A stretch of DNA of 64,000 bases from Acidobacteria bacterium UBA6911 (lineage in GTDB: Bacteria; Acidobacteriota; UBA6911; RPQK01; JAJDTT01), in NCBI GenBank assembly GCA_963579905.1, contig CAUZIZ010000003.1, positions 3,249-67,248 on the forward strand. The letters are read 5' to 3'. Positions within the stretch are counted from its first letter, which is position 1; each line of letters opens with the position of its first letter. The position numbers and the translations under genes were made by a program. Shown here piece after piece: positions 12,578 to 54,368 of the stretch. The notes under the pieces are model-generated. The model did not search any database, was not told the origin of the DNA, and worked only from the letters and a program-made list of their open reading frames with translations.

Positions 12578-12806
12578 CCAGCGGTGCTGCCCCATTCGAG
12601 AAAGAAACTTCCGGCTACTGGGGATTTGTGCGTCACTGCGTGGGGAAGAGTTGTCCAGCTCTCCTCGGAACTTGGCCTCATGTTGCTAACGGCTCAAGTC
12701 GTTCGCAGCTCTGTCGAACTTGGCTTCGTAACGCTGGTAGTTCACCCGTTGGCGGCACCTTCGGAGGACAGGAGACGTGCGACGTATTCTTGAAGTTTCG
12801 GCTTAG
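12578..12806 (+). repeat. Copy A of a ~220-bp noncoding repeat family. Other copies are at 40762..40981 (+), 54155..54326 (-) and a partial copy at 29447..29520 (+).
   Basis: Nucleotide identity with the other copies is roughly 85% (core ...cgtcactgcgtgggRaagagttgtccRgctctctcctcggaacYtggYctcatgYtgctaacggctcaagtcgttcgcRgctctgWcgRacttgSc...). The overlapping small ORFs differ by indels between copies, so the element is not protein-coding. Confidence 0.7.
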
Positions 12807-21947: not shown

Positions 21948-22763
21948 CTACCCTTTGCTAACCTGTCGATTTGCTTGAGGACCCTCAAGCAAATCGATCT
22001 GCAACGCGTTGGGACCATCGCTCAGCGCCCGATCCGGGTCATCATGGACCTCCAGAAAAAGGCCGTCCGTTCCAACCGCAACTGCCGCACGAGCCAAATC
22101 AGGAATGAACTTAGGTTCACCTGAGCTGGAACCGCCGGCACCTCCAGGCATCTGGACGCTGTGGGTTGCGTCGAACACGATCGGAAAGCCGAACCGCCGC
22201 ATCGTGGTCAGATCCTTGAAGTCGACTACCAGATTGTTGTAGCCGAAGGTGACTCCTCGTTCCGTCACCATCAGTCGAGAATTTCCTGTGCTCTCTGCCT
22301 TCTTCAGGACCTGGCTGATGTCCCCGGGAGCCAGAAACTGTCCTTTCTTGATGTTGACGACCTTCCCGGTGGCAGCAGCGGCCGCGATCAGATCGGTCTG
22401 GCGACAGAGAAAGGCCGGGATCTACAGAACGCCCAGCACCTTGGCGGCAGGAGCCACCTGAGAGACCCTATGGACATCGGAAAGGACAAGGAGGCCCAAC
22501 TCCTCTCGAACCCGGGAAAGAATTCTCAAGCCCTCATCCACGCCGGGTCCGCGATAGGATCGTACCGAGGTTCGGTTGGCTTTGTCGTAGGAAGCTTTGA
22601 AAACGAAGGGGATGCCCAGGGAGGAAGTGATCGCTTTCAGCCGGGTCGCCATCTGCATACAATGATCTTCACTCTCGATCACGCAGGGACCTGCAATGAG
22701 AAAGAAGGGATTCTGCCCTCCCACTTCCCATCCGTTGAAGGAGATCATTCGAGGAGACGCCAT
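21948..22763 (-). pseudogene. kdsA: 2-dehydro-3-deoxyphosphooctonate aldolase (KDO-8-phosphate synthase) with an in-frame TAG (plus-strand 22419..22421).
   Basis: ORF 22422..22763 gives the KdsA N-terminus (GIPFVFKASYDKANRTSVRSYRGPG). The same frame continues ...[37 protein letters not shown]...[13 protein letters not shown]...VFDATHSVQ...[26 protein letters not shown]. The stop sits where E. coli KdsA has Gln (VIQLPAFLARQTDL), consistent with CAG to TAG. Confidence 0.85.
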
Positions 22764-24451: not shown

Positions 24452-24588
24452 GATGATTCCCTCCCTTTTGGAAAGGGTGATAGAACGCCAAATGAAGGGT
24501 TCTTTGGTTACTCCGTGTGAGCCGCGATGTACGGAAATTCTTGCTTCAGCGCTTCGCACCGCATCGCGAAGTCTTGATGGCTGGTTCC

Positions 24589-25452
24589 CGGGTACTGAAA
24601 CGCGGTGAAAATGAAAAGGCTTCCGGCTCCGGGCCGCTCCACCACGTGCTCTACAAAGGACATCGCTTTCCGTGTGAAATCATCAGTCGTACCGTGTGGC
24701 TCTACCACCGCTTCACGCTGAGTCTTCGAGATGTCGAGGATCTGCTGGCTGAGCGTGGCGGCGGCGTTTCCTATGAGACCATTCGCTGTTGGTGTTTTAA
24801 ATTCGGATCCCAGTACGCCAAGTCGATTCGAAAGAAGCAAGGTCATCTAAGCGACATTTGGCATGTTTATGAGTTGTTCGTGAGGATCCGAGGAAGGCAG
24901 GTCGACCTGTGGCGAGCAGTTGATCAGGATGGCGATGTTCTCGACATTCTGGTGACCAATCGCCGGGACAAACGAGCTGCCAAACGTTTCTTCCGCAAGG
25001 TGTTGAAGGAACAAGGCCGTACCCCGTGGAAACTCATCACTGACAAGCTCAGGACCTACCCAGCCGCACATCGCGAAGTGTTCCCCCCAGTTGGGCATAG
25101 AACCGGTCAGTATGAGAACAACCGGGCTGAAATTTCGCATCAATATACCCGGGAGCAAGAGAGGCAGATGAGAGGGTTCAAATCAATCCAGCAGACTCAA
25201 CGATTCCTCTCTGTCCACGGTCGGATTCAGAATCTATTCCGAGTTGGCCGACACCATCTCAAAGCAGCTCACCATCGACTGCTTCGTGACAGAGCTTTTG
25301 CCTCCTGGAGGGAGGCGACGTGTGTCCGCTGAGGAGGAAGAAAGCTGGGGTATATCCCGGCTCGGAATCGTCTGGCCAACATTAAGTTGACAGCGCCGAC
25401 TTGAGGCTTTCAACGGCTACATAATTGACTATAGTGGCCGTTTTCTAGGTCC
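24589..25452 (+). mobile_element. IS6-family insertion sequence (boundaries approximate), 30 bp from tRNA-Pro.
   Basis: It carries one IS6/IS26-type transposase. The candidate imperfect terminal inverted repeats are ggtactgaaacgcgg (24589..) and ccgttttctaggtcc (..25452). The ~860 bp size fits IS6. Confidence 0.55.
24645..25332 (+). CDS. IS6-family (IS26-like) DDE transposase.
   Basis: KGHRFPCEIISRTVWLYHRFTLSLRDVEDLLAERGGGVSYETIRCW...DLWRAVDQDGDVLDILVTNRRDKRAAKRFF...TDKLRTYPAAH...YENNRAEISHQ is colinear with IS26 Tnp26. ORF 24517..25332 is trimmed to the GTG at 24645. Confidence 0.8.
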
Positions 25453-25482: not shown

Positions 25483-25559
25483 TGGTCGGGGCAGAGGGAT
25501 TTGAACCCCCGGCTTCCTGCTCCCAAAGCAGGCGCGCTACCAGGCTGCGCCATGCCCCG
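25483..25559 (-). tRNA. tRNA-Pro(TGG): tRNA-Pro (anticodon TGG).
   Basis: The reverse complement reads CGGGGCATGGCGCAGCCTGGTAGCGCGCCTGCTTTGGGAGCAGGAAGCCGGGGGTTCAAATCCCTCTGCCCCGACCA. Acceptor stem, C1:G72, A73, anticodon loop TT-TGG-GA, T-arm GGTTCAAATCC and CCA are all present. Confidence 0.85.
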
Positions 25560-29379: not shown

Positions 29380-31337
29380 CAGTCAGATCAGCGAGCCCCT
29401 CTTCTTCCGCTGGATTATTCAGGAAGAGAGGTGCGGTCGGGGACTCGGAAGATTTTTCTGTTGTCCACTCTCTCCTCGGAACTTGGCCTCGGATTGCAAG
29501 CTGCTCAAGTCGTGCGCGGATTTGGTTTGCTTTCCCATCCATTGATGCTGGTGATGGGGGGGCATTTCGGCGTGCTGTTCCAGGTTTCTTGATTTTTGTT
29601 CTTGCTGTTGCGTCTGGCTGCAGTTCGCTCTTCGAGCTCCCCACCGTTGCTACGGGCCCGGCCAGTGCCCCGGGAACGGCAGCCATCACGGTCAACGGCA
29701 GCGTTAATCCGCACGCGGTGGCAACTCATTACTATTTTGAATATGGCACCTCGGCTGCCTACGGAAAGAGAACGCCTGTTCGTGAGCTTCCTTCACGCCT
29801 GGCGGCGTACTTCTACGAAAGCTGGGATGAAGGCCCGGGAGGGTGGACGACCTGGGGTGTGAAGCAGTCTTTGCACCGAGACGGCGGACACTCCAACGGA
29901 TTCTTGAGGATTTCCGAGCCCAGCACCTTGAACGACTACAATCACAGGATGGCCGGAATTCTCCATCTGGCCAAATTCTTCTACTCGGGACCGGTCTACA
30001 AGAGTGCGTACCTGGGTGGAGGTGATCCCGATTTCAGGGATGCCCGGGTCCGTCTCTGGGTGCGCGGAAATGACTGGAAGCCGAACGGGTCCGAGCTGGT
30101 CTGGTGGACCCAGAGTCAGAGTAATATCGAGGCGGGGAATCAGAGAGGCGTTTTCAAACGCGCCAATTGGGACTATACCGGATTCACGCTGACCGCCCAT
30201 CTCCGCGACGGCAATTGGAATCGGGTCGAGTACCGGCTTCGCAACGACACCACCCAGTGGACGTATGGGGGGAGTAACCTGGGTTCGGACGGGCGCAAGT
30301 ACTATTCATATCGGTCCATTGACCAGGCTCTGGGCCATCTCAACTGTAATTTTTTCCATCTCCTGGCCTTTGTCAATCCCCACAATCCTCCTACTGGATC
30401 GATCGATTTCGATGAGTTCGAGCTTGCCTATCGCAACGAGTCTCTGGTTTTTCCCAGTAATGGAGGGAAACTGATCGACTGGCGCCGATACTCCAAAGTA
30501 GATCCCGCAACCCTGACGGACGGATGGCGACACGGCGAGGACCGGATGTGGAAGAGCCAGGAAAATCCCGCCGGTCCCCGGGAATTCACCTACACCTCCG
30601 AATCCGAGGTCACGATCGATACGGTTCAACTGCACCAGAATCCCGAGTGGCCGGGCAAGGGCGTGGAGGTTCTGGTCTCGGCGGACGGCAACTCCTATCA
30701 GTCAATCCTGAAGCGGCCCTTTCCAGAAAAGAGCAATAGCGGCCCCAATTTTGACTTTGTCGTCGAGCAGGGACTCGCCAGCAAGGCCCGATATTTGAGA
30801 GTTCGTCTCTCTTCTGGCTATCAGCGTCGCTACTGGGGATTGGGAGAGATCGAGATTTTCGGTAGCGGCGCTACCATGGTCCCCGATGACGATGACTACT
30901 ATGTGAATACCGATCTTTACGATGTTAAGCCGGGTGAGACTTGTCACTACAGGCTGGTGGCGACCAACAGTCACGGGAGCGGCTATGGAGAGGATCGGAC
31001 TTTTACCCTTCCTGCGTCGGACCAACCGCAGGTCCTGAAGGGGCAATCGAGTCGTATTAACGGTTCGACCGCCAGGCTGCAGGGAAGAGTCAATCCCATG
31101 GGCGTGCCCACCTATTTCTGGTTTGAGTGCGGCACCGACGAGGAGTATGGATCGAAGACCGAGGTCAGGTATGCGGGTCTCGAGCAGACCCCACGGACGG
31201 TTTTCGAGACCCTCACTGGATTGGGATCCGGAACGACGTACTACTACAGGACCGTAGCAGTCAACGGAAGTGGTACCGGATATGGAGATGCCGCTAGATT
31301 CAGCACGACAACATTATCCGCGTCCGAGGGACGATAG
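29376..31337 (+). CDS. Secreted/lipoprotein carbohydrate-binding protein with FN3-like tandem domains and an F5/8-type-C (discoidin)-like domain.
   Basis: Repeats GSVNPHAVATHYYFEYGTSAAYGKRT and GRVNPMGVPTYFWFECGTDEEYGSKT. Discoidin-like YLRVRLSSGYQRRYWGLGEIEIFG. Lipobox-like LAVASGC. The ATG at 29376 overlaps the upstream stop (ATGA), but the first ~70 aa overlap repeat copy D, so the true start may be TTG 29589. Confidence 0.6.
   Translation: MTVRSASPSSSAGLFRKRGAVGDSEDFSVVHSLLGTWPRIASCSSRARIWFAFPSIDAGDGGAFRRAVPGFLIFVLAVASGCSSLFELPTVATGPASAPGTAAITVNGSVNPHAVATHYYFEYGTSAAYGKRTPVRELPSRLAAYFYESWDEGPGGWTTWGVKQSLHRDGGHSNGFLRISEPSTLNDYNHRMAGILHLAKFFYSGPVYKSAYLGGGDPDFRDARVRLWVRGNDWKPNGSELVWWTQSQSNIEAGNQRGVFKRANWDYTGFTLTAHLRDGNWNRVEYRLRNDTTQWTYGGSNLGSDGRKYYSYRSIDQALGHLNCNFFHLLAFVNPHNPPTGSIDFDEFELAYRNESLVFPSNGGKLIDWRRYSKVDPATLTDGWRHGEDRMWKSQENPAGPREFTYTSESEVTIDTVQLHQNPEWPGKGVEVLVSADGNSYQSILKRPFPEKSNSGPNFDFVVEQGLASKARYLRVRLSSGYQRRYWGLGEIEIFGSGATMVPDDDDYYVNTDLYDVKPGETCHYRLVATNSHGSGYGEDRTFTLPASDQPQVLKGQSSRINGSTARLQGRVNPMGVPTYFWFECGTDEEYGSKTEVRYAGLEQTPRTVFETLTGLGSGTTYYYRTVAVNGSGTGYGDAARFSTTTLSASEGR
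29447..29520 (+). repeat. Partial copy D of the ~220-bp repeat family.
   Basis: ttgtccactctctcctcggaacttggcctcggattgcaagctgctcaagtcgtgcgcgg aligns with the core of copies A, B and C. It lies ~70 bp after the GH130 gene stop. Confidence 0.5.
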
Positions 31338-31435: not shown

Positions 31436-31522
31436 GCGAAAGTGGCGGAATTGGCAGACGCGCCAGATTTAGGATCTGGTGGGTGAGAGCCCGTGGGGGT
31501 TCGAGTCCCCCCTTTCGCACCA
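31436..31522 (+). tRNA. tRNA-Leu(TAG): tRNA-Leu (anticodon TAG) with a long variable arm.
   Basis: GCGAAAGTGGCGGAATTGGCAGACGCGCCAGATTTAGGATCTGGTGGGTGAGAGCCCGTGGGGGTTCGAGTCCCCCCTTTCGCACCA. Acceptor stem GCGAAAG/CTTTCGC. Anticodon loop TT-TAG-GA. T-arm GGTTCGAGTCC. Confidence 0.9.
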
Positions 31523-31570
31523 AATGAAATCAACGGGTTACAGTGATGTGACGGAAGCGAACCGAGCCCG

Positions 31571-31762
31571 TCACGGACCTGTCGTCCAGTTTTCGTCCAG
31601 TTCCGAATGACGGTTTTGCCACTCTTGTAGCTCCGCTTTCTGAGCCGCCTTCACCGAACGGGTGGCGTGTGAGTCCACATAGTGGACGTAGCGCATGGTG
31701 GTCTGGATGTCCGCGTGCCCCAGACTTCGCAGTCGTCGGTCGCCAGTCAGGGAACGTCTGAA
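31571..31762 (-). pseudogene. C-terminal ~60-aa remnant of a tyrosine recombinase (phage-type integrase).
   Basis: ...RRLRSLGHADIQTTMRYVHYVDSHA... is the conserved C-terminal catalytic-Tyr block (GH..i.tT..Y.H) of integrases. The upstream part of the ORF is not integrase-like. Confidence 0.6.
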
Positions 31763-31785
31763 CGTTTCTGACGGAGCACCTACAT

Positions 31786-33420
31786 TCACCAAAAGAAATA
31801 GAATACCAACACGAACGACGTCGCGACTACGACGCCCGCCCACAGATGGGGCTGCAGCCACCACGAAGACACGCCGTCGGGAAAAGGTGACTCCTGGATC
31901 TCCGGCACATCTGCCTGGGAACGACGGAGCCAACCCGACTCCTCTGTCTCCAAAGCATCTCGGTCCTCGGACCTCCCCAGCACCAGAGAGCTCAAAATCA
32001 TGGCGCCCGAAGTAATGGCAATGCTCCAGAGATAGGCAACAAACCGGTCAGTCAACCAGACCGGGAGCATCCCCAGACTAGAACCAATGATCGCCAGGAT
32101 GCCGTAGGTGGAACCGGCGGCAAGACCCAGAATCCCACTTCTTCGATGGACTCGGGTGAAGACGCCCATCAAATAGACGGTCATCAGCGGTATCACGAAA
32201 ACGCTCGTAACTCGCACGAAGAAGCTGGCAATATTCTCGTAACTCAAGATGAACGGAATGTAGAGGAAGGAAAGACCGATGACGACTGGAGTCACCGTCC
32301 GGCTGACTTTCAAGTAGTGCGCGTCTTCTCGATCCCGGGCGATCAACCTGGCGTAGATGTCTCGGGTGCAGAGGGCAGACAGCGCTGATCCAATGCCCTC
32401 GTAGGTCGTCATGGCGGCCGACACGACACCCGCGACTACAATCCCCTTCAGCCCACTGCCCAGGAACCGGTTCACGAGGAGGGGATAGATCTCGTCCGGA
32501 CGCTGCAAGGTCTCGGGCCAGAGTGCGCGGCCCAGAATTCCCAGGGTGCCATTGAAGTACATCATCACCATGGTCATGGCGGCAGCCAGCAGGACTGACA
32601 TCTTCACGTCCCACAACGAGCGCGCCCCTAACAGCTTCATTGTCTCGCTGTGGTTGACGATTGGATAGGCGGCTCCGATGATCACCCATGCCGCCACCAC
32701 GATGAGCGCGTCGGGCTGACCTGGGCGGGAGGCCCCAATATGAAGCAGGTACCCGGGAAGCTCGGTTCCGCCCTTGGCTGCCAGGGCTGCGGTGGCTCCC
32801 TCCCAACCGCCTACGGCCTGCCAGACGACAACCCACAGCACCAGCGTCCCCAGGACCATGGAAACGGTCAGGAAAGCATCCGCCCAGGCAATGGTCTTGA
32901 GTCCGCCGCGCGCGGAATAGAATGTGGCCATGCCGGCAAAGGCCACCACCACGGCCCACGCCCAGAATCCTTCGACTCCCATGACACGCGTGAGCATCAG
33001 CTGCAGTGAAATCGCAATGCCGGCGAGGATGTTGGTCCGGTATTGGACCTGGACCAGCACACTGATCACCCGGGCACCTGGGCCGAAGCGGCCCTCCAGA
33101 TACTCGGCGTTGGTGAACATGGCTCCCCGGTACATTGGCGGCAGGACAAAAAAAGCCGTCACGACGTAGCCGATGACAACCCCCATCCACCAGGTGGAGA
33201 GAATCGAAATGCCGTCGGTATAGCTGATGCCGCTCAAGGCAACGATGTCACCGGCATCCACCGACGTGGCAAACATGGAGACAGCGACGATCCAGAAGGG
33301 GAGGCTACGTCCACCCAGAAACCAGTCGACGTGGGTCCGGGTCTGGCTGGATCGCAAAAGACCATAGCCGAAGACCGTAAGGTTGATACCAACAACAATG
33401 GCCCAATCAAGCAGGGTCAT
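31786..33420 (-). CDS. Sodium:solute symporter (SSS/SLC5) family transporter.
   Basis: 544 aa with multiple TM segments. SSS blocks GGRSLPFWIVAVSMFATSVDAGDIVALSG and FFVLPPMYRGAMFTNAEYLEGRFG. Confidence 0.85.
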   Translation of the reverse strand: MTLLDWAIVVGINLTVFGYGLLRSSQTRTHVDWFLGGRSLPFWIVAVSMFATSVDAGDIVALSGISYTDGISILSTWWMGVVIGYVVTAFFVLPPMYRGAMFTNAEYLEGRFGPGARVISVLVQVQYRTNILAGIAISLQLMLTRVMGVEGFWAWAVVVAFAGMATFYSARGGLKTIAWADAFLTVSMVLGTLVLWVVVWQAVGGWEGATAALAAKGGTELPGYLLHIGASRPGQPDALIVVAAWVIIGAAYPIVNHSETMKLLGARSLWDVKMSVLLAAAMTMVMMYFNGTLGILGRALWPETLQRPDEIYPLLVNRFLGSGLKGIVVAGVVSAAMTTYEGIGSALSALCTRDIYARLIARDREDAHYLKVSRTVTPVVIGLSFLYIPFILSYENIASFFVRVTSVFVIPLMTVYLMGVFTRVHRRSGILGLAAGSTYGILAIIGSSLGMLPVWLTDRFVAYLWSIAITSGAMILSSLVLGRSEDRDALETEESGWLRRSQADVPEIQESPFPDGVSSWWLQPHLWAGVVVATSFVLVFYFFW

Positions 33421-34192
33421 TTCAACTCACTCGAACTGGCACGCGCCCTTCTCGCCACCGGGGACAGACGTAATCATGAGCGAACTATACCAGTGGGCGA
33501 CAGCCACTGGGGACAGACGTCAACATGAGATGACTACACGATTAGGTCTCGTTAGACGTTCTCATGCCTGGATCTGTGTGGGATCAGACACGGAAGTGCC
33601 GAGAACTCGACAGAGAGGCCGTCTTTCCGATCTAGTGGTCTGGCATGAGGAAACCATTTTTCGTGCTGCTGCTTCTAGTTTCGCTGAACGCGACCGAAGT
33701 CCGCGGAGACGAGAGTCCTGACTAAGCTTCAGCTGCTGATGCAGCAAGGCGCTCCTATGACCTTCTCTAAACTCCACAACGACAGTCGCTTCGAGAAAGA
33801 GGAGAAGGATTTCATCGGTCGGATGTACGAGATTTTCTTCCAGATTCCTGGCTTCTTGAAGAGTGAGCACGAACGCACCGACGCGATTCCCACGCTCCGC
33901 CGGATCGCGGATCATTTTGAGGTGACTGACAATTCGATCGATCTGCTTCTGACCGTCATGGCCGCCGACCGCAGGGTGCCTTCTTTCTTCGTTCGGCGAC
34001 CGCACCACCAAAGAGATCCCCTCACTCCAGCTGACCCGGATCGCCCTTTGGCAGTTCTGCTGCCAGGGAGAATGTAGCGGGTCCGCGCGTTTTCTGCCCG
34101 GTGTCCTGGTAAAATGCTGAGTTCGCAGATCTTCCCGCAGCATTTGGACATCAGGTCTATATACATCGTCTACGAGGATTGACTCAAGGCTG

Positions 34193-34438
34193 TTGACCAG
34201 GGAAGCCGGCTCCCTCTCCACTCGCTCAGCGGCACGATGGAGCCCGAACGATCTCCCCGGCTTCGCCCTGGAGGAGTCTCCCGTGATCTGGGGGGATGAG
34301 ATCGCGTACATAGTGAGGTGGGAGAGGAGTCACGCCCGAGCAACATCGGAGAAGCCCCTGGCCAGCCTGGCTGGCCAGCCTGTCCGCCTGCGTTTCGTGT
34401 TGAAGGATACAGATCTCTACTCGCTGAGGTTCCAGTAG
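34193..34438 (+). pseudogene. C-terminal ~60-aa fragment of a GH130-like paralog.
   Basis: ...LPGFALEESPVIWGDEIAYIVRWERSHARATSEKPLASLAGQPVRLRFVLKDTDLYSLRFQ is near-identical to the C-terminus of 39113..39718 (...LPGFALEESPLIWGDEIEHTVRWERGYAKATSDRPLGRISGKPVGLRFVMKDADLYSLRFR). Confidence 0.6.
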
Positions 34439-34638
34439 GAGCAGCACCGGCAACCCGGCCTCGGGACCTTGCTCCTTTGCCCACCCTGACTGCCGTAATC
34501 ACCGGACAACTTCAGCCCGGAATCGGTGGACAACTTGGCCCGGAACAAGCATAGGATTGGCAGATCTAGTCCCGGAAAGGCTCAGTCGGGTTGAGGAAAC
34601 GCTTGTAGGTTTGAGGACGCCGTCGTTTCCGGTAGGGA

Positions 34639-35577
34639 ATGTCTGCGACGGCAACCTACCGGCCCCGCCATCCCGAGAGGACGCCCTTCTACCAGTGTCT
34701 AGCGGACTACGGGAACGAGTTCAAGCAGAGTGATCCCTATTTCTATGAAGCGAAGTATGGACCCAGGCGGCCAGTGGGGGACAAGACCGTCGACCGCTTC
34801 TTGGAGTGTGGCCTCTTGCGCCACGGATTCGCTCGCCTGAAATGTGGCCGCTGTTCGCACCAGGCGCTCTTAGCGTTCTCGTGCAAAACGAGATATTTTT
34901 GTCCTTCCTGCCCAGCCAAGCGGGTGGCCGCCTTTGTCGAGTGGGTCAGCGAAGAAGTCCTGGAGGCGGTCGACCATCGCCAGTACGTCTGGGCCCTCCC
35001 CCGGGTCTTGCGCCCGGCCTTTCGAAAAGAGCGCAAGCTTTTGGGCCGCCTCAGTCGCTGTGCCTGGACCAGCCTGCGCCAATACGCCCAGGCGGCGCTC
35101 GGCGAAGGCTTCGTGCCGGGCGCGGGGGTGGCGATCCAGACCTACGGGGATGCGCTCAATCCTCACGAACCTATCCCTATGCTCGCCAGCGATTCTGCTT
35201 GGGCGCCCGACGGGAGTGTGCGCTCGATGGGCGAAGTCGACGCTGAAGTCCTCACGGACCTCTTTCAACATCAGGTCTTGGAGGCGATGGTGGCCGAGCG
35301 TCGTCTCAGTCACGACTTTGCCCAGAAGCTGCGCGCTTGGCACCCGAGCGGCTTCGGCGTCCATCGTGGCCGGCCTATCGAGAGCGACGACCGTCCCGCC
35401 TTGGAGCGTTTTGCCACCTACCTCCTCCGTCCCAGTTTCGCCGCCAGTCTACTGCAGTACGATCCCCAGCAAGGTCGGGTAATACCGCACTGCCAAGGGT
35501 ATCCACCGCACCCTGGATGCCCTGGACTGGATCGCGCTGGTGACCTCCCCCTACTCCAAACCCGGGGGAACAGATGA
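34639..35577 (+). mobile_element. IS91-family transposase remnant (pseudogene; HUH motif degenerated, C-terminus lost).
   Basis: N-terminal Zn-binding module LKCGRCSHQALLAFSCKTRYFCPSCPAKR, typical of IS91-family transposases. The region where HUH is expected reads IQTYGDALNPHEPIP. The ORF ends prematurely and the catalytic Tyr region is absent. Confidence 0.6.
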
Positions 35578-35682
35578 GCCGTTATTATGGCCGTTACTCC
35601 AACGCTTCGCGTGGGCAGCGGCGCCAAGCCTCCACCCTGGCCACGGGCAAGGGCGCCTCCCAGGCCACGGACTTGTCTGTGG

Positions 35683-36060
35683 TCATGTGGATCGAGTCGG
35701 AGTGGGCCGGCTGCTCAGTACCTTTGTGAGCTGTGATGGTCTGTGGAAGGGACGTGTCTTCCTACCGAAGATCAGGTCGGTAATGTGCAGCAGCTTGCGG
35801 TACTCGAGAATCTCCTTGATCCCCGGAACACAGTTGTGGGTGTTTAGATAGCGCTCCGGCCAGGGGTCCTCGGGGAGGGGACTTTCGAAGAACTGCTCGC
35901 GATTCTCCTGGTAGAAACCTTCGTAGCTCTCCCAGGCCCGGTCCATCTGGGACGAATCAATCAGGCCGGGCAGGACTAGGTAGCCTTCGTCGGCAAAGAA
36001 GGTGCAGGCCGCGGCCTCCTCCTGGTCGATCTTCCCAGTCAGCCGCCTTTCCCTGATAAG
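35683..36060 (-). pseudogene. N-terminal fragment of a phytanoyl-CoA dioxygenase (PhyH) family protein.
   Basis: The extended reading frame gives ...TFFADEGYLVLPGLIDSSQMDRAWESYEGFYQ..., resembling the PhyH N-terminus (compare HLEVEGYVVLPGMLTPDQIAQLHAE of the intact gene at 62072..62947). It terminates after ~125 aa without the His/Asp iron ligands. Confidence 0.4.
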
Positions 36061-36106
36061 ATAGGGAAGAGAGAACAGAGGTCGTCTTCAAGCTGGGAGC
36101 AGCAGT

Positions 36107-37312
36107 ATGATGAGATCGATCGCTTTGCTAGGGTTGGGATTGGTAACGATCTGCGACCTCGTGGAGTCGGCGAACCTGGGGCAGGTCAAGATCAAGCTAG
36201 AACACACGGTGGAGATAGTTCCAACCGGCACGGGATTGGGTCGGGGGATGCTCGGTGTCGTCCGCCATCCCGACGGATCGATCTTCGTCAACACCCAGAC
36301 CTTCGGGCTGGCGAAGAGCACCGGCGGTGGCCAGACCTGGACCGCAGTCCCAGCCGAGAACGCGTTTGCTCTTGGCGTCAGCCGCGACGGGAAGCTGTGG
36401 CTTGCCAATCAAGGCAGTCACAGGAAGACCCTGTTCGTGCGTCGCTCGGCCGATGGCGGCCGCCGCTGGGAAACGACGATGATCAACGGCGGGGCGTTTG
36501 CGCCCGATGCTCCGCGTCACCCCTACTCGTGGGTCGGCGACGACTACAATACCTTTCTTGAACACCCTGACGGAACGCTCATGTTCTCGGCCGGGATGCG
36601 CTACCTTCCGTGGTTTTACGAAGACGAGAGTCTCATGATCGATGGCCTCGTCCGACCCGATGCAGACGTAGGCGGACTGATGATGCTGCGCTCCACAGAT
36701 GGGGGTAGGAGCTGGGGTGATATGACACTGGTCCATCCCTTTGCATCCGAAGTGGGTTACGCCATGGATCCCGAGAACCCCAGGCGTATCCTGGCTATGA
36801 CACGAATCCAGCGGCCCCTGCTGGCCGGAGAAGACCGAGAAGCAACGCTGAAGAAGACCGGGGCGCCGGCGACCGTGAAGTCTGAGGCACCCTCGATCTA
36901 CAAAAACGGACTCCTGTTGGAATCGGAGGACGGGGGGAGAACCTTTCACGAAGTCCCGGGAGGGCTCACCGAATTCTACGAGATCCGCGGCACCATCCTG
37001 TGGGCCCAGAACAACACCGTGGTAGTGACCCATCAGGGTGCCCATCCGGGAGGAGGCCCGGATGGTCGTCTGTTAGCAAGAATCAGTCTCGACGGAGGCA
37101 GCAGCTGGCTAAATGGCACTAGAACCGGCACACCTTTTATGAATCAGTCAACGAAATTCGTCCTGCTTCCCTACCCGCCCGGTCACTCCTTTACCGCTCC
37201 CACAGTCGAAGTCTCCGACAACCGCTTCTTGACCGTCTACTTCCACGGCAATCTCAGCCAAAACAGGGCTATGGTCAGCGGCGTCTTCTGGCACCTCGAG
37301 AACCCTCGCTGA
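36107..37312 (+). CDS. Secreted BNR/Asp-box repeat protein (sialidase-like fold).
   Basis: Signal peptide MMRSIALLGLGLVTICDLVESA. Four Asp boxes: RSADGGRRWE, RSTDGGRSWG, ESEDGGRTFH and SLDGGSSWL. Confidence 0.75.
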   Translation: MMRSIALLGLGLVTICDLVESANLGQVKIKLEHTVEIVPTGTGLGRGMLGVVRHPDGSIFVNTQTFGLAKSTGGGQTWTAVPAENAFALGVSRDGKLWLANQGSHRKTLFVRRSADGGRRWETTMINGGAFAPDAPRHPYSWVGDDYNTFLEHPDGTLMFSAGMRYLPWFYEDESLMIDGLVRPDADVGGLMMLRSTDGGRSWGDMTLVHPFASEVGYAMDPENPRRILAMTRIQRPLLAGEDREATLKKTGAPATVKSEAPSIYKNGLLLESEDGGRTFHEVPGGLTEFYEIRGTILWAQNNTVVVTHQGAHPGGGPDGRLLARISLDGGSSWLNGTRTGTPFMNQSTKFVLLPYPPGHSFTAPTVEVSDNRFLTVYFHGNLSQNRAMVSGVFWHLENPR

Positions 37313-37838
37313 CGGGCCGACTTCATCCACTACTTCAGGAGGTTTGTACCTGGATTGGCGAGGCTCCAGTTGTACCAGAAGGCATCGAAACCACTCAGCT
37401 TGACACTCTGAGGGGCCCTTTCGAATTGCCCTGTTGTGGGATTGAAGCTCGCCCCCGTCGCCTCTTCAATCCAGGCCCCTTCCTTCCTGCGATAGCCTCC
37501 CTCCAGGAGGACGAAAGCTCGAGCTGCCTCAGATGGCCACAGTAAGGCGGTCCGTCAACTGGCCTTCCCCTTCGGAAATATCAGTCGAAGGGTCTGTGCG
37601 CCACGTGTTGTTCGCATCTTTTTCGAAAACAAGGTCAGTGTCGTCCTCAACTGGGCTGAGGAACTCAAGCGGCTGGTGCCGACCGAGAACTGAGACGAGC
37701 CAGTCTGTTTGTCGTCCAGTTATCGTCCAGTCAGAAACCTATAGGATATCGTCAGAAATCACTCGATCGATGCGGAAAAAACCCAGGAACCAATTGAGTT
37801 TTCAGTAGTTTTCGTTAGATTTCACGTCGTTGTCCAAC

Positions 37839-37896
37839 AGATTTAGGATCTGGTGGGCGAGAGCTCGTGGGGGTTCGAGTCCCCCCTTTCGCACCA
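37839..37896 (+). repeat. 58-bp direct repeat of the 3' half of tRNA-Leu(TAG) (attR-like), 56/58 identical to 31465..31522.
   Basis: agatttaggatctggtgggCgagagcTcgtgggggttcgagtcccccctttcgcacca differs from the tRNA by 2 positions. The similarity continues ~10 bp past the tRNA end. Confidence 0.8.
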
Positions 37897-39112
37897 ATCA
37901 AATCAATGACTTAGCGCGAAGCTACGAAAAGGCGAGTGGACACACTATTTATCTCCGTCCACTTTTCGTCCACCTTGAAGTTCACGCTTTTCGGCCTCTC
38001 GGACTGATTCAATCGCGTGTTCTTCCGGTGTACCCAAGTTGATCGAGTCCGGGTGGCCTGCTTGCTCCGGGCGAGAGCCAAAGGAGAGACCAATGTCTCA
38101 AGAGAGAAGAAAGAGCGAGGATCTCTGGGCTCCTATCGTCTTGCCGTGAAAGGCTCCCGTGAAGGACTCAGAGTCTCGTCGAATAGGCCCAAAAAGCTCT
38201 CCCGGACAAAAGTGCGGTAGTAGTAACCCGATTATGTTTGCCAATGTCAGGCAGCGAGACCCGGGACAAATTTTGCTGCCTGGTTGTCCACCCAGAGTCC
38301 GGGGGTCCATGCGAAGAATCGAATCGGAACGGGCTCGGGAGGCTGGGAGAATACTTGTCCAACGCCAGGGATCGTGGCGGCCTCGCTCATGGAACTCACA
38401 AGCACAAACAGCGGAGGCCCGGAACTGTCCTCAAAAATCAACTGCGCCGCGACCGGAAATTCGGTCATCGACAGGGTCTTCACGGGCACACTGCGCACCG
38501 GGAACGTGGCGAACAGCCATTGTTCGAATTGGACGGACGCCACAGGCGCCGGTGCGAGCGCGGTCAATGGAGAGAGCGACTTCAAAGATGTGAGATGGAC
38601 TGAGGACGGGGTAGAGCCTGGCTCTTTCTTCAGTCGCCTCTATTGCTTCGAAAGCCAATAGGGAAAGGCCACGGCCAATTCCCAAGTGCGTCCTTTTCGG
38701 TTCTCCGGCCACGCCGCCGCTGACCCACCCCAACCATCTTCCCACGTACTCCCAAAGCCGGGCAGGCTCCTGATCGTAAAGTCGGGTTGCCCGTTAGACG
38801 AATTGCTCCAGGGTCTTCTGGGCTACGCCGAGTCCGTCGGCTCCGAAGTGGTAGCCCAGGAAGTCGAATCCCTTCTCGATGGGCCCGATGGACGTCTTCT
38901 CGGGATCCTTTTCCAGCCCCCAGTCCCTGCTTACTCCTCACTGCTCGAATCCCTACGGAAAACTCACCAAGAATCTCCTCATCTGCCATTCTTCCATCGC
39001 CCTGCCGCAGTACTCAGCGCCCTGTTTCTTCTCTACAACCTGCCATCACGCAAAGCAATCTCGGGGTAGTCCAGGCTCGTAGGATCGAATCAGCGAGTTA
39101 GCGGCCCTGTTC

Positions 39113-39718
39113 CTACCGGAACCTCAGGGAGTACAGATCCGCATCTTTCATGACGAATCGCAGCCCCACCGGCTTCCCGGAAATCCGGCCCAGGGGCCTA
39201 TCTGAAGTGGCCTTGGCATAACCTCGTTCCCAGCGCACCGTGTGCTCGATTTCGTCTCCCCAGATCAGCGGTGATTCCTCCAGAGCAAAGCCAGGAAGAG
39301 GATTTCCCTGGATATCCTGGATCTCCACACGGATGCTGCCGGCTGCGGAGGTGGCGAAGTTCAGCACCAGGTTGTCCCCGTTGAAGACTAGCGGTTTCGT
39401 GACAAGCTCGCCGCCTGCATAGCCCGCATGCACTGAGACGAATCCATCCGTTCGGAGCACCATCCGCTGCACGTGGACACTGGGAAAGGTGTAATGGCGT
39501 TGAAGGTAGAGAGAAATCTCGTCCGCTGCCGTAGCCACGACTCCGGAGGCAGGTGTATTGGCTCGATGAATCCAGTTTCGGGGGTGCCTGCCCGGGCGGA
39601 TAAAGGCCTCCATGAAGGTCCGCTGCCAATGAAATCCGTCTCGACTGCTGAGAAGGACTACGTCTGAAATACCAGACCTCGGATTTACCCTGAACGGTTC
39701 CAGGGTGCGCCTGGGCAC
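39113..39718 (-). pseudogene. 5'-truncated GH130-like paralog (C-terminal ~200 aa only).
   Basis: ...SRDGFHWQRTF...GGELVTKPLVFNGDNLVLNFATSAAGSIRVEIQDIQGNPLPGFALEESPLIW... aligns to the C-terminal half of the intact paralogs. An in-frame TAA lies 8 codons upstream of the first possible start (GTG 39716..39718). The upstream region belongs to a different gene on the other strand. Confidence 0.65.
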
Positions 39719-40646: not shown

Positions 40647-40761
40647 GTCGGGAAGGCACTCGATCCTCTGGAGGCTCTCCTTTCCGGGGTTCTGAAGGAA
40701 TATTCTGGTAGGAATTTGAGTCACAAATTTCAGTTCAGTCCCGCCCCCAGGAAGCCCTGGC

Positions 40762-40981
40762 CTCACTCGAGAAGGAAACTTCCCGCTATTGGGAAGATTG
40801 TGCGTCACTGCGTGGGAAAGAGTTGTCCGGCTCTCTCCTCGGAACCTGGTCTCATGTTGCTAACGGCTCAAGTCGTTCGCGGCTCTGTCGGACTTGCCTT
40901 CGTCACGCTGGTACTTCACCCGTTGGCGGCACCTTCGGAGGGCAGGAGACGTGTGACGTATTCTTGGAGTTTCAAGCTTAG
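40762..40981 (+). repeat. Copy B of the ~220-bp repeat family.
   Basis: It aligns end to end with copy A (12578..12806), with several single-base indels. It lies between the UPF0104 gene and nqrA. Confidence 0.7.
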
Positions 40982-54119: not shown

Positions 54120-54154
54120 AACTAGACTCCCCAGACTCTTGTCACGACCTGAGG

Positions 54155-54326
54155 ATGAACTACCAGTACGACAAAGCCAAGTCCGTCAGAGCCGCGAACG
54201 ACTTGAGCCGTTAGCAGCATGAGGCCAAGTTCCGAGGAGAGAGCTGGACAACTCTTCCCCACGTAGTGCCGCACGATATCGCCTATCCTCAACCGAAGTT
54301 TCGTTCTCGAATGGGGCAGCACAGCT
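54155..54326 (-). repeat. Copy C of the ~220-bp repeat family (inverted orientation, 3'-truncated).
   Basis: The reverse complement aligns with copies A and B over ~170 bp. It lies 36 bp after the sthA-like pseudogene. Confidence 0.7.
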
Positions 54327-54368
54327 GGGGGGCGAGACTGATCTGGGACTTCTCACGGCCGGCTCTGA

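What the first reader, a model, noticed from the sequence alone, without database searches (positions are those of the whole stretch)
31436..37896. Degraded integrative island at tRNA-Leu(TAG), bounded by a 58-bp direct repeat of the tRNA 3' half.
An intact tRNA-Leu lies at 31436..31522. Positions 37839..37896 repeat its last 58 nt with 2 mismatches, and similarity runs ~10 bp past the 3' end. This is the classic attL/attR configuration of a tRNA-integrating element. Only the last ~60 aa of the integrase survive (31571..31762, motif LGHADIQTTMRYVHY). The interior holds an IS91-like transposase pseudogene, GH130 and PhyH fragments, an apparently intact SSS transporter and a BNR protein. This indicates an old, rearranged island whose cargo transporter may have been domesticated.
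Basis: seen in the sequence. Interest (0 to 1): 0.7.

Follow-up and report, generated by a model that had tools for sequence, protein, structure and literature searches.

The report
Decayed integrase-less island at tRNA-Leu
A 6.4-kb stretch inserted into a leucine tRNA gene of a marine Acidobacteriota genome is the worn-out remnant of an integrating mobile element, absent from closely related strains; this is an ordinary, well-understood kind of genomic island.

Summary
tRNA-Leu(TAG) lies at 31436-31522, and its last 58-60 nt are repeated at 37838-37897 with 2 mismatches.

The predicted empty site exists. Two metagenome contigs from close strains (flanks 95-98.7% identical) carry the complete tRNA directly followed by the sequence after 37896. 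The 6,374 bp between the repeats are therefore a presence/absence polymorphism.

Only about 51 C-terminal codons of a tyrosine integrase survive (31571-31723). Two related genomes carry full-length homologues at the same position.

The repeat begins in the anticodon stem, which is the known anticodon-centred attP type. Two tandem pairs of TCGTCCAGT lie 59 nt inside attL and 106 nt inside attR. An intact phage attP of a related integrase has its own 9-mer pairs at 60 and 106 nt, so these are probably arm-type integrase sites.

- The transporter is not foreign cargo. It is a copy of a conserved chromosomal gene, and it sits in an IS91-linked mosaic that also occurs at two other loci in related genomes.
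- The island cannot be called old.

An older remnant of a related element follows attR.

Verdict: a new member of a known kind (decayed tDNA island, CIME-like). Interest is low.

The parts
31436..31522 (+). Intact tRNA-Leu(TAG). The anticodon is at 31470-31472 and the anticodon stem-loop spans 31463-31479. On the anticodon-loop crossover model, its 3' part downstream of the crossover point came from the element.
   Evidence: ARAGORN; Rfam RF00005, 59 bits.
31464..31523 (+). attL core: a 60-nt identity block that begins at tRNA position 29, the second base of the anticodon stem, and runs through the tRNA 3' end.
   Evidence: The start position relative to the anticodon was read from the sequence.
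31582..31601 (+). Tandem pair of TCGTCCAGT with an 11-nt period, 59 nt beyond the tRNA 3' end and overlapping the last codons of the integrase remnant. Candidate arm-type integrase sites of the P' arm.
   Evidence: four of the five copies of the 9-mer in 64 kb fall in these two pairs; 0.71 expected. Analogous pairs occur at the same offset in L011, L010 and L055.
31571..31723 (-). C-terminal remnant of a tyrosine integrase, about 51 codons: LGHADIQTTMRYVHY...ELDENWTTGP*. It includes the catalytic Tyr region. The N-terminal ~360 codons are missing.
   Evidence: tblastn of the L011 integrase, residues 365-410, E 1e-14. Pfam does not score the remnant.
31716..31723 (.). Breakpoint where the integrase remnant joins the IS91-associated mosaic. 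Homology to loci L044 and L053 ends at 31716; integrase homology starts at 31723.
31786..33420 (-). Intact sodium:solute symporter (SSF) gene, 544 aa. It is a copy of a chromosomal gene with conserved synteny in relatives.
   Evidence: Pfam PF00474, E 9e-29; NCBIfam; full-length homologues; native locus AA_permease-AhpC | SSF | radical SAM-Aminotran_4 in L034-L039.
33574..34045 (+). 5' fragment of the AhpC/redoxin gene that neighbours SSF at its native locus. Codons 18-117 of 292 map to 33697-33996. Truncated pseudogene.
   Evidence: blastn 83.5% to L036; tblastn 83% over 100 aa.
34247..34435 (+). C-terminal 63-codon fragment of a paralogue of the GH130-like gene family. It forms an inverted repeat with 39094-39299.
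   Evidence: I1 (206 nt, 71%); tblastn 67%, E 1.6e-23.
34639..35673 (+). IS91/ISCR-family (HUH Y2) transposase pseudogene. The Zn-binding domain and part of the Y2 domain remain. There are frameshifts near 35482 and 35550, and a 557-nt deletion at 35673-35676 relative to L044.
   Evidence: Pfam Zn_Tnp_IS91, E 5e-15; NCBIfam transpos_IS91, E 6e-25, below the cut-off; frame changes; deletion.
35675..35973 (-).
   Evidence: tblastn of the L044 120-aa ORF in two frames. No Pfam or PDB match.
36107..37312 (+). Intact 401-aa ORF with BNR/Asp-box motifs.
   Evidence: Pfam BNR_2 30.6 bits and BNR 27.8 bits, close to the cut-offs; 97.5% identical to the 411-aa L044 protein.
37712..37731 (+). Second tandem pair of TCGTCCAGT with an 11-nt period, 106 nt before the attR core and in the same orientation as the first pair. 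Candidate arm-type sites of the P arm.
   Evidence: The spacing is the same (106 nt) as in the intact attP of phage contig L055.
37838..37897 (+). attR core: the displaced 3' fragment of tRNA-Leu, 58/60 identical to attL. Its variable-arm allele is the one found in the intact tRNA of empty-site contig L008.
37898..38000 (+). Vestige of the integrase-proximal arm of an older, related element. It is homologous to 31524-31625 and carries a CGTCCAC tandem pair at 37956-37973, about 58-59 nt after the fragment end. It is also present in the empty-site contigs.

Best explanation
The segment 31524-37897 (6,374 bp) is a decayed integrative element. A tyrosine integrase inserted it into the anticodon-loop site of tRNA-Leu(TAG). 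The element's attP carried a copy of the tRNA from the anticodon stem to the 3' end. Integration therefore rebuilt a working tRNA (attL) and displaced the original 3' half 6.4 kb downstream (attR).

The element landed next to the vestige of an earlier, related element, giving a tandem array. Its integrase gene was later cut down to its last ~51 codons at a junction with an IS91-family mosaic. That mosaic consists of the BNR gene, gene fragments, the IS91 pseudogene, and a copied piece of chromosome holding the redoxin 5' fragment and the SSF transporter. It now fills almost the whole interior.

What remains is an integrase-less element that still has both att cores and both candidate arm-site pairs, which is the structure called a CIME (cis-mobilizable element).

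Shown here: the repeat, the empty site, the integrase homology, the conserved site geometry, and the native origin and dispersal of the interior.

Inferred: the order of events, integrase binding to the 9-mer pairs, and capture of the SSF gene by IS91-type one-ended transposition.
For: (1) tRNA plus a direct 60-nt 3' fragment, with 0 expected by chance.

(2) Empty site: L008 and L009 have the full tRNA joined directly to 37897 onwards. Left flank 98.3-98.7% and right flank 95-96.4% identical. L049 extends that haplotype to nqrA.

(3) The integrase remnant aligns to residues 365-410 of a 414-aa PF00589 integrase that lies after the same tRNA in L011 (E 1e-14). L010 has a 436-aa homologue there too.

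(4) The identity block starts in the anticodon stem. This is the 'A' attP class, reported for 2083 of 3919 Islander islands (PMC4383910).

(5) Four of the five TCGTCCAGT copies in 64 kb form two period-11 pairs just inside attL (59 nt) and attR (106 nt). In phage contig L055, an uninterrupted attP of a 38%-identical integrase has all four of its CAGGACCAA copies in two period-11 pairs, 60 and 106 nt from a tRNA-Leu-like core (0.14 expected). L011 and L010 have their own pairs at the same offset. These overlap non-conserved integrase C-termini, which argues for constraint at the DNA level.

(6) The ~100 nt after attR are significantly similar to the ~100 nt after attL.

(7) The interior 31716-37776 recurs at 94-98% identity at two other loci. 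The SSF-redoxin piece matches a syntenic chromosomal locus.
Against: No intact integrase, excisionase or transfer gene is present. The element family is therefore known only from a 51-codon remnant and from site geometry.

No excised circle or attP junction of this particular element was found.

The 67-nt block containing the P-arm pair (37710-37776) is also present at locus L044-L046, which has no tRNA fragment. That block could belong to the mosaic rather than to the element's arm.

The empty-site contigs carry both tRNA variable-arm alleles: L008 has the attR allele and L009 the attL allele. The direction of the polymorphism (gain, precise excision, or deletion between the repeats) therefore cannot be decided.

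The older remnant after attR has no detectable protein-level integrase similarity and no right-hand att.
Confidence: 0.85

Rival explanations
1. The island is ancestral in this population. The 'empty' contigs arose secondarily, either by integrase-mediated excision in trans or by RecA-dependent deletion between the two 60-nt repeats. The origin as an integrative element is the same; only the direction of the polymorphism differs.
For: L009 is the empty-site contig closest to the window (98.7% and 96.4%). It carries the attL allele of the variable arm joined to the attR flank. That is the expected product of a crossover in the identical 3'-most 31 nt of the repeats. Island-bearing contigs come from several samples.
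Against: L008 carries the attR allele, which is what a never-occupied site (or an anticodon-loop excision) would have. No outgroup with an unoccupied site is available, because L010 and L011 are occupied by other elements.
Confidence: 0.35
2. The insert is essentially an IS91-family or composite transposon (the BNR-IS91-SSF mosaic). It transposed into the tRNA region, and the 60-nt repeat is its target duplication or a coincidental tRNA pseudogene.
For: The mosaic occupies 31716-37776, which is 95% of the insert. It is found at two other loci without tRNA genes.
Against: IS91-family elements make no target-site duplication (PMC13181058), and no transposon makes a 60-bp one. The shared extents of the mosaic differ between loci (ends at 37366 or 37776, and a window-specific break at 31716), so it has no fixed termini. 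The integrase remnant, the anticodon-stem start of the repeat and the conserved 59/106-nt site geometry are unexplained by transposition.
Confidence: 0.04
3. The element was already integrase-less when it arrived. It was moved as a cis-mobilizable passenger, or in trans by a related integrase encoded elsewhere, and it may still be mobile.
For: Both cores (58/60 identical) and both 9-mer pairs are intact, while almost everything else is pseudogenised. The insert is polymorphic among strains with 95-98.7% identical flanks, which leaves little time for so much decay in situ. Related full-length integrases using the same tRNA exist in the lineage. CIME-type mobilisation is documented (PMC5704250).
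Against: No helper integrase lies in the 64-kb window. No circular junction or second insertion site flanked by att was found. Deletions and IS activity can degrade an island quickly.
Confidence: 0.2

Closest known systems
tDNA genomic islands of the Islander type, with an anticodon-centred ('A') attP site (Williams 2002; Hudson, Lau and Williams 2015, PMC4383910)
   Same: A regenerated tRNA gene plus a displaced 3' fragment in direct orientation mark the ends. The identity block runs from the anticodon stem to the tRNA 3' end. A tyrosine integrase gene lies next to the tRNA. A tandem array sits at the same tDNA.
   Different: The integrase is reduced to ~51 codons, so Islander's integrase filter would reject it. 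The host is an uncultured marine Acidobacteriota lineage.
CIME, cis-mobilizable elements (Pavlovic et al. 2004; reviewed in PMC5704250)
   Same: [quoted passage not shown]
   Different: CIMEs were defined for decayed ICEs and IMEs of Firmicutes and were shown to be mobilised by accretion with a functional ICE. Here no conjugation or mobilisation gene is present, the ancestral element type is unknown (relatives look phage- or satellite-like), and mobilisation is untested.
Lambda-type heterobivalent integrase attP, with arm-type sites on the P and P' arms
   Same: Short direct repeats in tandem (period about one helical turn) lie on both sides of the core at fixed distances. One set is next to or inside the int gene end. 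The geometry is conserved between elements while the sequences differ.
   Different: Binding is not shown. The P' pair overlaps the integrase coding sequence. From my own knowledge, attP overlapping int is known for Myxococcus phage Mx8; I did not check this here.
IS91/ISCR rolling-circle elements that mobilise adjacent DNA by one-ended transposition (PMC13181058)
   Same: A Y2 HUH transposase with an N-terminal Zn-binding domain. The captured chromosomal pieces (GH130-like fragment, redoxin fragment, SSF gene) lie upstream of tnpA, on the terIS side, where read-through capture occurs. The mosaic is dispersed to several loci.
   Different: The transposase is a pseudogene in every copy seen. 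oriIS and terIS were not identified. The BNR gene lies on the wrong (oriIS) side for simple one-ended capture.

Membership tests
tDNA-integrated genomic island (Islander criteria) | Intact tRNA gene plus a cognate 3' fragment in direct orientation on the same replicon | tested here: met
   60 nt, 58/60 identical, both on the + strand.
tDNA-integrated genomic island (Islander criteria) | Integrase gene (PF00589) inside the interval | tested here: not met
   Only a 51-codon C-terminal remnant is present. There is no Pfam hit, but homology to full-length integrases is clear (E 1e-14).
tDNA-integrated genomic island (Islander criteria) | Uninterrupted target site in a related genome | tested here: met
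   L008 and L009.
Anticodon-centred (A-type) attP class | The identity block begins at the anticodon stem-loop and extends to the tRNA 3' end | tested here: met
   The block starts at tRNA position 29, which is 31464; the anticodon is at 31470-31472. L055 attP has the same form.
CIME (cis-mobilizable element) | Integration and transfer genes lost, attL and attR retained | tested here: met
CIME (cis-mobilizable element) | Excision or transfer when a functional element supplies the integrase | not testable with these tools
   Needs an experiment or read-level data. No circular junction was found.
Heterobivalent tyrosine integrase attP (arm-type sites) | Repeated arm sites on both arms at defined distances from the core | tested here: met
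   Pairs at 59 and 106 nt in the window, and at 60 and 106 nt in the intact L055 attP.
Heterobivalent tyrosine integrase attP (arm-type sites) | The N-terminal domain of the integrase binds the arm sites | not testable with these tools
   Biochemical. The L011 integrase does have an Int_N/SAM-like N-terminal region.
IS91/ISCR family | Y2 HUH transposase with a Zn-binding N-terminal domain | tested here: inconclusive
   PF14319, E 5e-15, above its cut-off. NCBIfam transpos_IS91 scores 88 bits, below the cut-off of 125, and covers 16-253 of 356 model positions. The gene is frameshifted and partly deleted.
IS91/ISCR family | oriIS and terIS ends with a tetranucleotide target | not tested
   The ends were not identified.
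Sodium:solute symporter family (PF00474) | Full-length SSF domain | tested here: met
   E 9e-29, model positions 1-398 of 406; TIGR00813, E 4e-46.
   No Pfam or NCBIfam hit for the fragment or for the full-length L008 and L049 proteins. The 503-aa paralogue hits a GH130 mannobiose phosphorylase in PDB at E 0.024.
   No hit at E 0.05 and no PDB hit. The genuine PhyH gene of the empty-site haplotype (L049) shows no similarity to the window.

The most novel reading that the evidence does not exclude
The integrase-less element keeps a complete, functional attL/attR set (cores plus arm-site pairs). It is still moved in trans by a related integrase of the lineage. On this reading it acts as a shuttle that spreads an IS91-captured copy of a native transporter gene among strains of marine Acidobacteriota.
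Probability: 0.15. Interest if true: 0.4.

Novelty: new member of a known kind. Interest (0 to 1): 0.22.

Why it matters
The finding adds no new principle. It is a clean, fully bounded example of island decay and tandem accretion at a tRNA gene in an uncultured marine Acidobacteriota lineage, a phylum in which mobile elements are little studied.

Two by-products could be reused:
- A site geometry conserved to the nucleotide for this integrase group: a core from the anticodon stem to the tRNA end, with tandem 9-mer pairs at about 60 and 106 nt. It could help map att sites of related elements in metagenomes.
- An example of a native transporter gene copied into an IS91-linked mosaic that appears at three loci.

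Tried and rejected
- A search for close full-length relatives of the integrase remnant gave only four short fragments.
- A scan of viral contigs for the exact TCGTCCAGT pair gave no match.
- 17 viral contigs share the tRNA-Leu 3' end, but they belong to distant hosts and integrases.
- A look-up of the 72-aa remnant ORF, aimed at finding a circular junction, found nothing on record.
- A possible degenerate att or tRNA fragment next to the mosaic in L044 is not significant (81 and 70 of 1000 shuffles reach the score).
- tblastn found no protein-level integrase remnant after attR. Only DNA-level homology supports the older remnant.
- The island is not compositionally foreign. Its tetranucleotide distance ranks 47 of 91 same-size segments; GC is 0.591 against 0.577; GC3 is similar to the flanking genes.
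- Rfam finds only the two tRNAs.
- The dispersed intergenic repeat gave no convincing consensus RNA structure.

Full report
**Observation.** ARAGORN finds two tRNA genes in the window. One is tRNA-Leu(tag) at 31436-31522 on the + strand, and Rfam confirms it at 59 bits. The repeat finder reports a 60-nt direct repeat, 31464-31523 and 37838-37897, 97% identical (D1). The two mismatches are at 31484 (T/C) and 31491 (C/T). The 28-nt 3' end of the tRNA occurs exactly twice in 64 kb even with three mismatches allowed, against none in 100 shuffles.

The anticodon lies at 31470-31472 and the anticodon stem-loop at 31463-31479 (sequence). The repeat thus starts at the second base of the anticodon stem. 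Both mismatches fall in the variable-arm stem and both keep base pairing (U.G to C-G, and G-C to G.U).

**The empty site exists.** The window comes from a marine metagenome lineage. Identical proteins lie on ENA, JGI, NCBI-MAG and Logan contigs, and the nearest species-level genomes are Acidobacteriota MAGs. I scanned JGI metagenome contigs for the left junction (unique flank plus the 5' part of the tRNA). This returned two contigs, L008 (Ga0310123_10043262) and L009 (Ga0310345_10002115).

Both carry a complete tRNA-Leu(tag). In both, the tRNA is followed directly by the sequence that in the window follows 37896. The left flank is 98.3-98.7% identical and the right flank 95.0-96.4% identical. 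Relative to these haplotypes the window carries a 6,374-bp insertion bounded by the repeat.

A further contig of the same sample, L049, overlaps L009 by 94 identical bases and extends the island-free haplotype to the nqr operon.

**Integrase.** Two related genomes have the same left-flank gene (81-83% amino-acid identity) and the same tRNA-Leu. Each has a full-length tyrosine recombinase immediately after the tRNA, reading towards it: 436 aa in L010 and 414 aa in L011. The L011 protein matches PF00589 at E 4e-22 and has an Int_N/SAM-like N-terminal region.

tblastn of the L011 protein against the window aligns residues 365-410 to 31723-31586 (61% identity, E 1e-14), and nothing else in the window matches. 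The L011 element also encodes a DUF3987/PriCT primase-helicase, a RepB-primase-like protein and a small terminase subunit. Intact relatives thus look like prophages or satellites.

**Site architecture.** An identity block that runs from the anticodon stem to the tRNA 3' end defines the anticodon-centred attP class. That class accounts for 2083 of 3919 islands in Islander (PMC4383910).

Inside the insert, the 9-mer TCGTCCAGT occurs four times. The copies form two tandem pairs with an 11-nt period, at 31582/31593 and at 37712/37723. Only one other copy exists in 64 kb, against 0.71 copies expected in total. The first pair lies 59 nt beyond the tRNA 3' end and overlaps the last integrase codons. 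The second lies 106 nt before the attR core. The sequence around the two pairs is otherwise unrelated.

L011 has TGTCTCCACT twice with the same period and offset. L010 has TTGCCTG twice. In each case the pair overlaps an integrase C-terminus whose amino-acid sequence is not conserved (ELDENWTT, VETKWRH, DAGKKQAT). This argues for selection on the DNA rather than on the protein.

The decisive comparison is an IMG/VR phage contig, L055. It was found with an alignment of the two integrases. It encodes a 378-aa integrase, 38% identical to the query. Phage genes lie on both sides: a Sak4-like annealing protein, a replication initiator, and small and large terminase subunits.

Next to the integrase stop codon lies an uninterrupted tRNA-Leu-like segment that begins in the anticodon stem. 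ARAGORN finds no full tRNA there, so this is an attP. All four copies of CAGGACCAA in the 21-kb locus form two period-11 pairs, against 0.14 copies expected. One pair lies 60 nt beyond the tRNA-like 3' end, inside the integrase coding sequence. The other lies 106 nt beyond the anticodon-stem edge.

The window values are 59 and 106 nt. attL plus attR of the window therefore reconstitute an attP with the same geometry. I infer that the pairs are arm-type integrase binding sites; binding itself is untested.

**Older remnant and tandem structure.** The ~100 nt after attR (37898-38000) are significantly similar to the ~100 nt after attL. The local alignment score is 20, against 8.6 +/- 1.4 for shuffles (0 of 2000 reach it) and a maximum of 13.5 in 457 genomic control segments. 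This stretch carries a CGTCCAC pair at the same offset.

The same stretch follows the tRNA in the island-free contigs. It is therefore the vestige of an earlier, related element whose integrase end sat next to the tRNA. The present island integrated into the regenerated tRNA in front of it. No third tRNA fragment and no protein-level integrase similarity survive there, so the right end of the older element is lost.

**Interior.** The SSF transporter gene (31786-33420, minus strand) is intact. Pfam SSF scores E 9e-29 over the whole model, and homologues of 544-550 aa align over 100% of it.

It is not foreign cargo. In five contigs of related Acidobacteriota, the 92%-identical orthologue lies between AA_permease-AhpC/redoxin on one side and radical SAM-aminotransferase IV on the other. 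One of these contigs belongs to the MAG that also holds L010. The 80%-identical orthologue in L039 has the same neighbours.

Nucleotide homology between that locus and the window covers 31786-33497 (87%) and 33574-34045 (83.5%). It stops exactly at the SSF stop codon on one side. On the other side it stops inside the redoxin gene, of which only codons 18-117 of 292 are present.

Next come four further pieces:
- A 63-codon C-terminal fragment of a paralogue of a GH130-like gene family (34247-34435). The family label rests only on a PDB hit at E 0.024 for a paralogue.
- An IS91/ISCR-type transposase pseudogene (34639-35673). Zn_Tnp_IS91 scores E 5e-15. NCBIfam transpos_IS91 scores E 6e-25 but falls below its cut-off. 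Frameshifts lie near 35482 and 35550, and 557 nt are deleted at 35673-35676 relative to L044.
- A frameshifted fragment of an unidentified gene (35675-35973). The PhyH label could not be confirmed.
- An intact 401-aa BNR/Asp-box ORF.

Base composition, tetranucleotide usage and GC3 of the insert do not differ from the rest of the window.

**The interior is a dispersed mosaic.** SSF proteins about 98% identical to the window copy lie in two other genomic contexts in long-read assemblies. One context lies between Kelch/DUF309 genes and an NHL/TIG gene (L044-L046). The other lies downstream of infB-nrnA-truB (L052-L054). Neither has a tRNA.

These loci share 94-99% identical DNA with window 31716-37776 or 31716-37366, in the same order, but with different insertions (IS1595, DDE_3, IS200/605 Y1) and deletions. 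The shared extents differ between loci, and only the window keeps the redoxin fragment. The mosaic therefore has no fixed ends, and the window copy is closest to the original capture.

The break at 31716 is specific to the window and abuts the integrase codon LGH at 31723. This is where the integrase gene was truncated.

The captured chromosomal pieces all lie upstream of the IS91 transposase gene. That is the terIS side, where one-ended transposition carries adjacent DNA along. IS91-family elements make no target duplication (PMC13181058). Capture by IS91 is an inference from this arrangement. The BNR gene lies on the other side and is not explained by it.

One observation is uncomfortable for the arm-site reading. 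The 67-nt block 37710-37776, which contains the P-arm pair, is also present in L044-L046, and no att-like sequence lies next to it there. The simplest reading is that the L044-L046 copy derives from an island like this one and took a piece of the arm with it. This is not shown.

**Direction and age.** Island-bearing contigs come from several samples and differ by up to 0.5%. Island-free contigs differ from the window by 1.3-5% in the flanks.

L008 carries the attR allele of the variable arm in its intact tRNA. That is expected for the host allele before an anticodon-loop crossover. L009 carries the attL allele. That would fit a deletion by recombination within the 3' part of the repeats, or a standing polymorphism.

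Gain and loss therefore cannot be told apart, and the island cannot be called old. Given how much decay sits between nearly identical att sites, arrival as an already defective, trans-mobilised element (a CIME in the sense of PMC5704250) is a live possibility. I rate it at about 0.2.

**Surroundings.** Relative to L049, the window also has a 2.7-kb deletion with an 11-nt overlap at 39708-39718. It removed the first ~310 codons of the GH130-like gene, a complete PhyH gene (PF05721), a 66-codon ORF and the start of an LPG_synthase_TM gene fragment.

**Verdict.** The finding is real and its main interpretation is correct. It is a decayed, integrase-less tDNA island of the anticodon-centred class, in tandem with an older remnant, and filled by an IS91-linked mosaic that carries a copy of a native transporter gene. 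This is a new member of a well-known kind, and its interest is low.

Noticed in passing
window 12589-12806 (+), 40760-40981 (+), 54153-54345 (-), 29447-29524 (+); also L049 2700-2847 and 4279-4500, L034 12603-12758: Dispersed intergenic repeat of 60-220 nt with a ~65-nt conserved core (TGTTGTCCnGCTCTCTCCTCGGAAC..GGCCTCATGTTGCTAACGGCTCAAGTCGTTCGCGGCTCTG). It usually lies upstream of genes, and short-read contigs break inside it (L007). There is no Rfam match, no consistent ORF and only a weak consensus fold.
   Followed up: partly
window 39708-39718: Window-specific 2.7-kb deletion relative to the island-free haplotype (L049 500-3226), with an 11-nt overlap at the junction. It removes the N-terminal ~310 codons of a GH130-like gene, a complete PhyH gene, a 66-codon ORF, a copy of the dispersed repeat and the start of an LPG_synthase_TM gene fragment.
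   Followed up: yes
window ~38700-38900 (-): Fragment resembling the reverse-transcriptase motif of group II intron maturases (EKTSIGPIEKGFDFLGYHF). The only support is a PDB hit to 6me0_C at E 0.25, with no Pfam hit. It is also present in the island-free contig L008.
   Followed up: partly
L011 5945-5997 and 6907-6989; window tRNA-Pro 25483-25559 (-): In the relative L011, tRNA-Pro(tgg) is accompanied 962 nt away by a 53-nt copy of part of it, which is another att-like duplication. In the window the same tRNA-Pro lies next to an IS240-type DDE transposase gene (24517-25332).
   Followed up: no
window ~21948-22763 (-): A DAHP_synth_1 (PF00793) gene is called as two adjacent short ORFs of 107 and 113 aa. 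It is possibly a frameshifted pseudogene.
   Followed up: no
window 33454-33546: Two tandem copies of a 44-nt unit (77% identical) just upstream of the SSF start codon. They are also present upstream of the SSF copy in L044.
   Followed up: no
L055 11039-11305 (IMGVR_UViG_3300005441_000003): Intact phage attP with a tRNA-Leu(CAA)-like core, flanked by two CAGGACCAA tandem pairs at 60 and 106 nt. One pair lies inside the integrase coding sequence. It is a useful template for mapping att sites of this integrase group.
   Followed up: yes
L044 8129-9431 and 11789-12185: In the second locus of the mosaic, the SSF gene is bracketed by two direct partial copies of the IS91-type element (96-100% identical segments). 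This suggests a rolling-circle or composite arrangement.
   Followed up: partly
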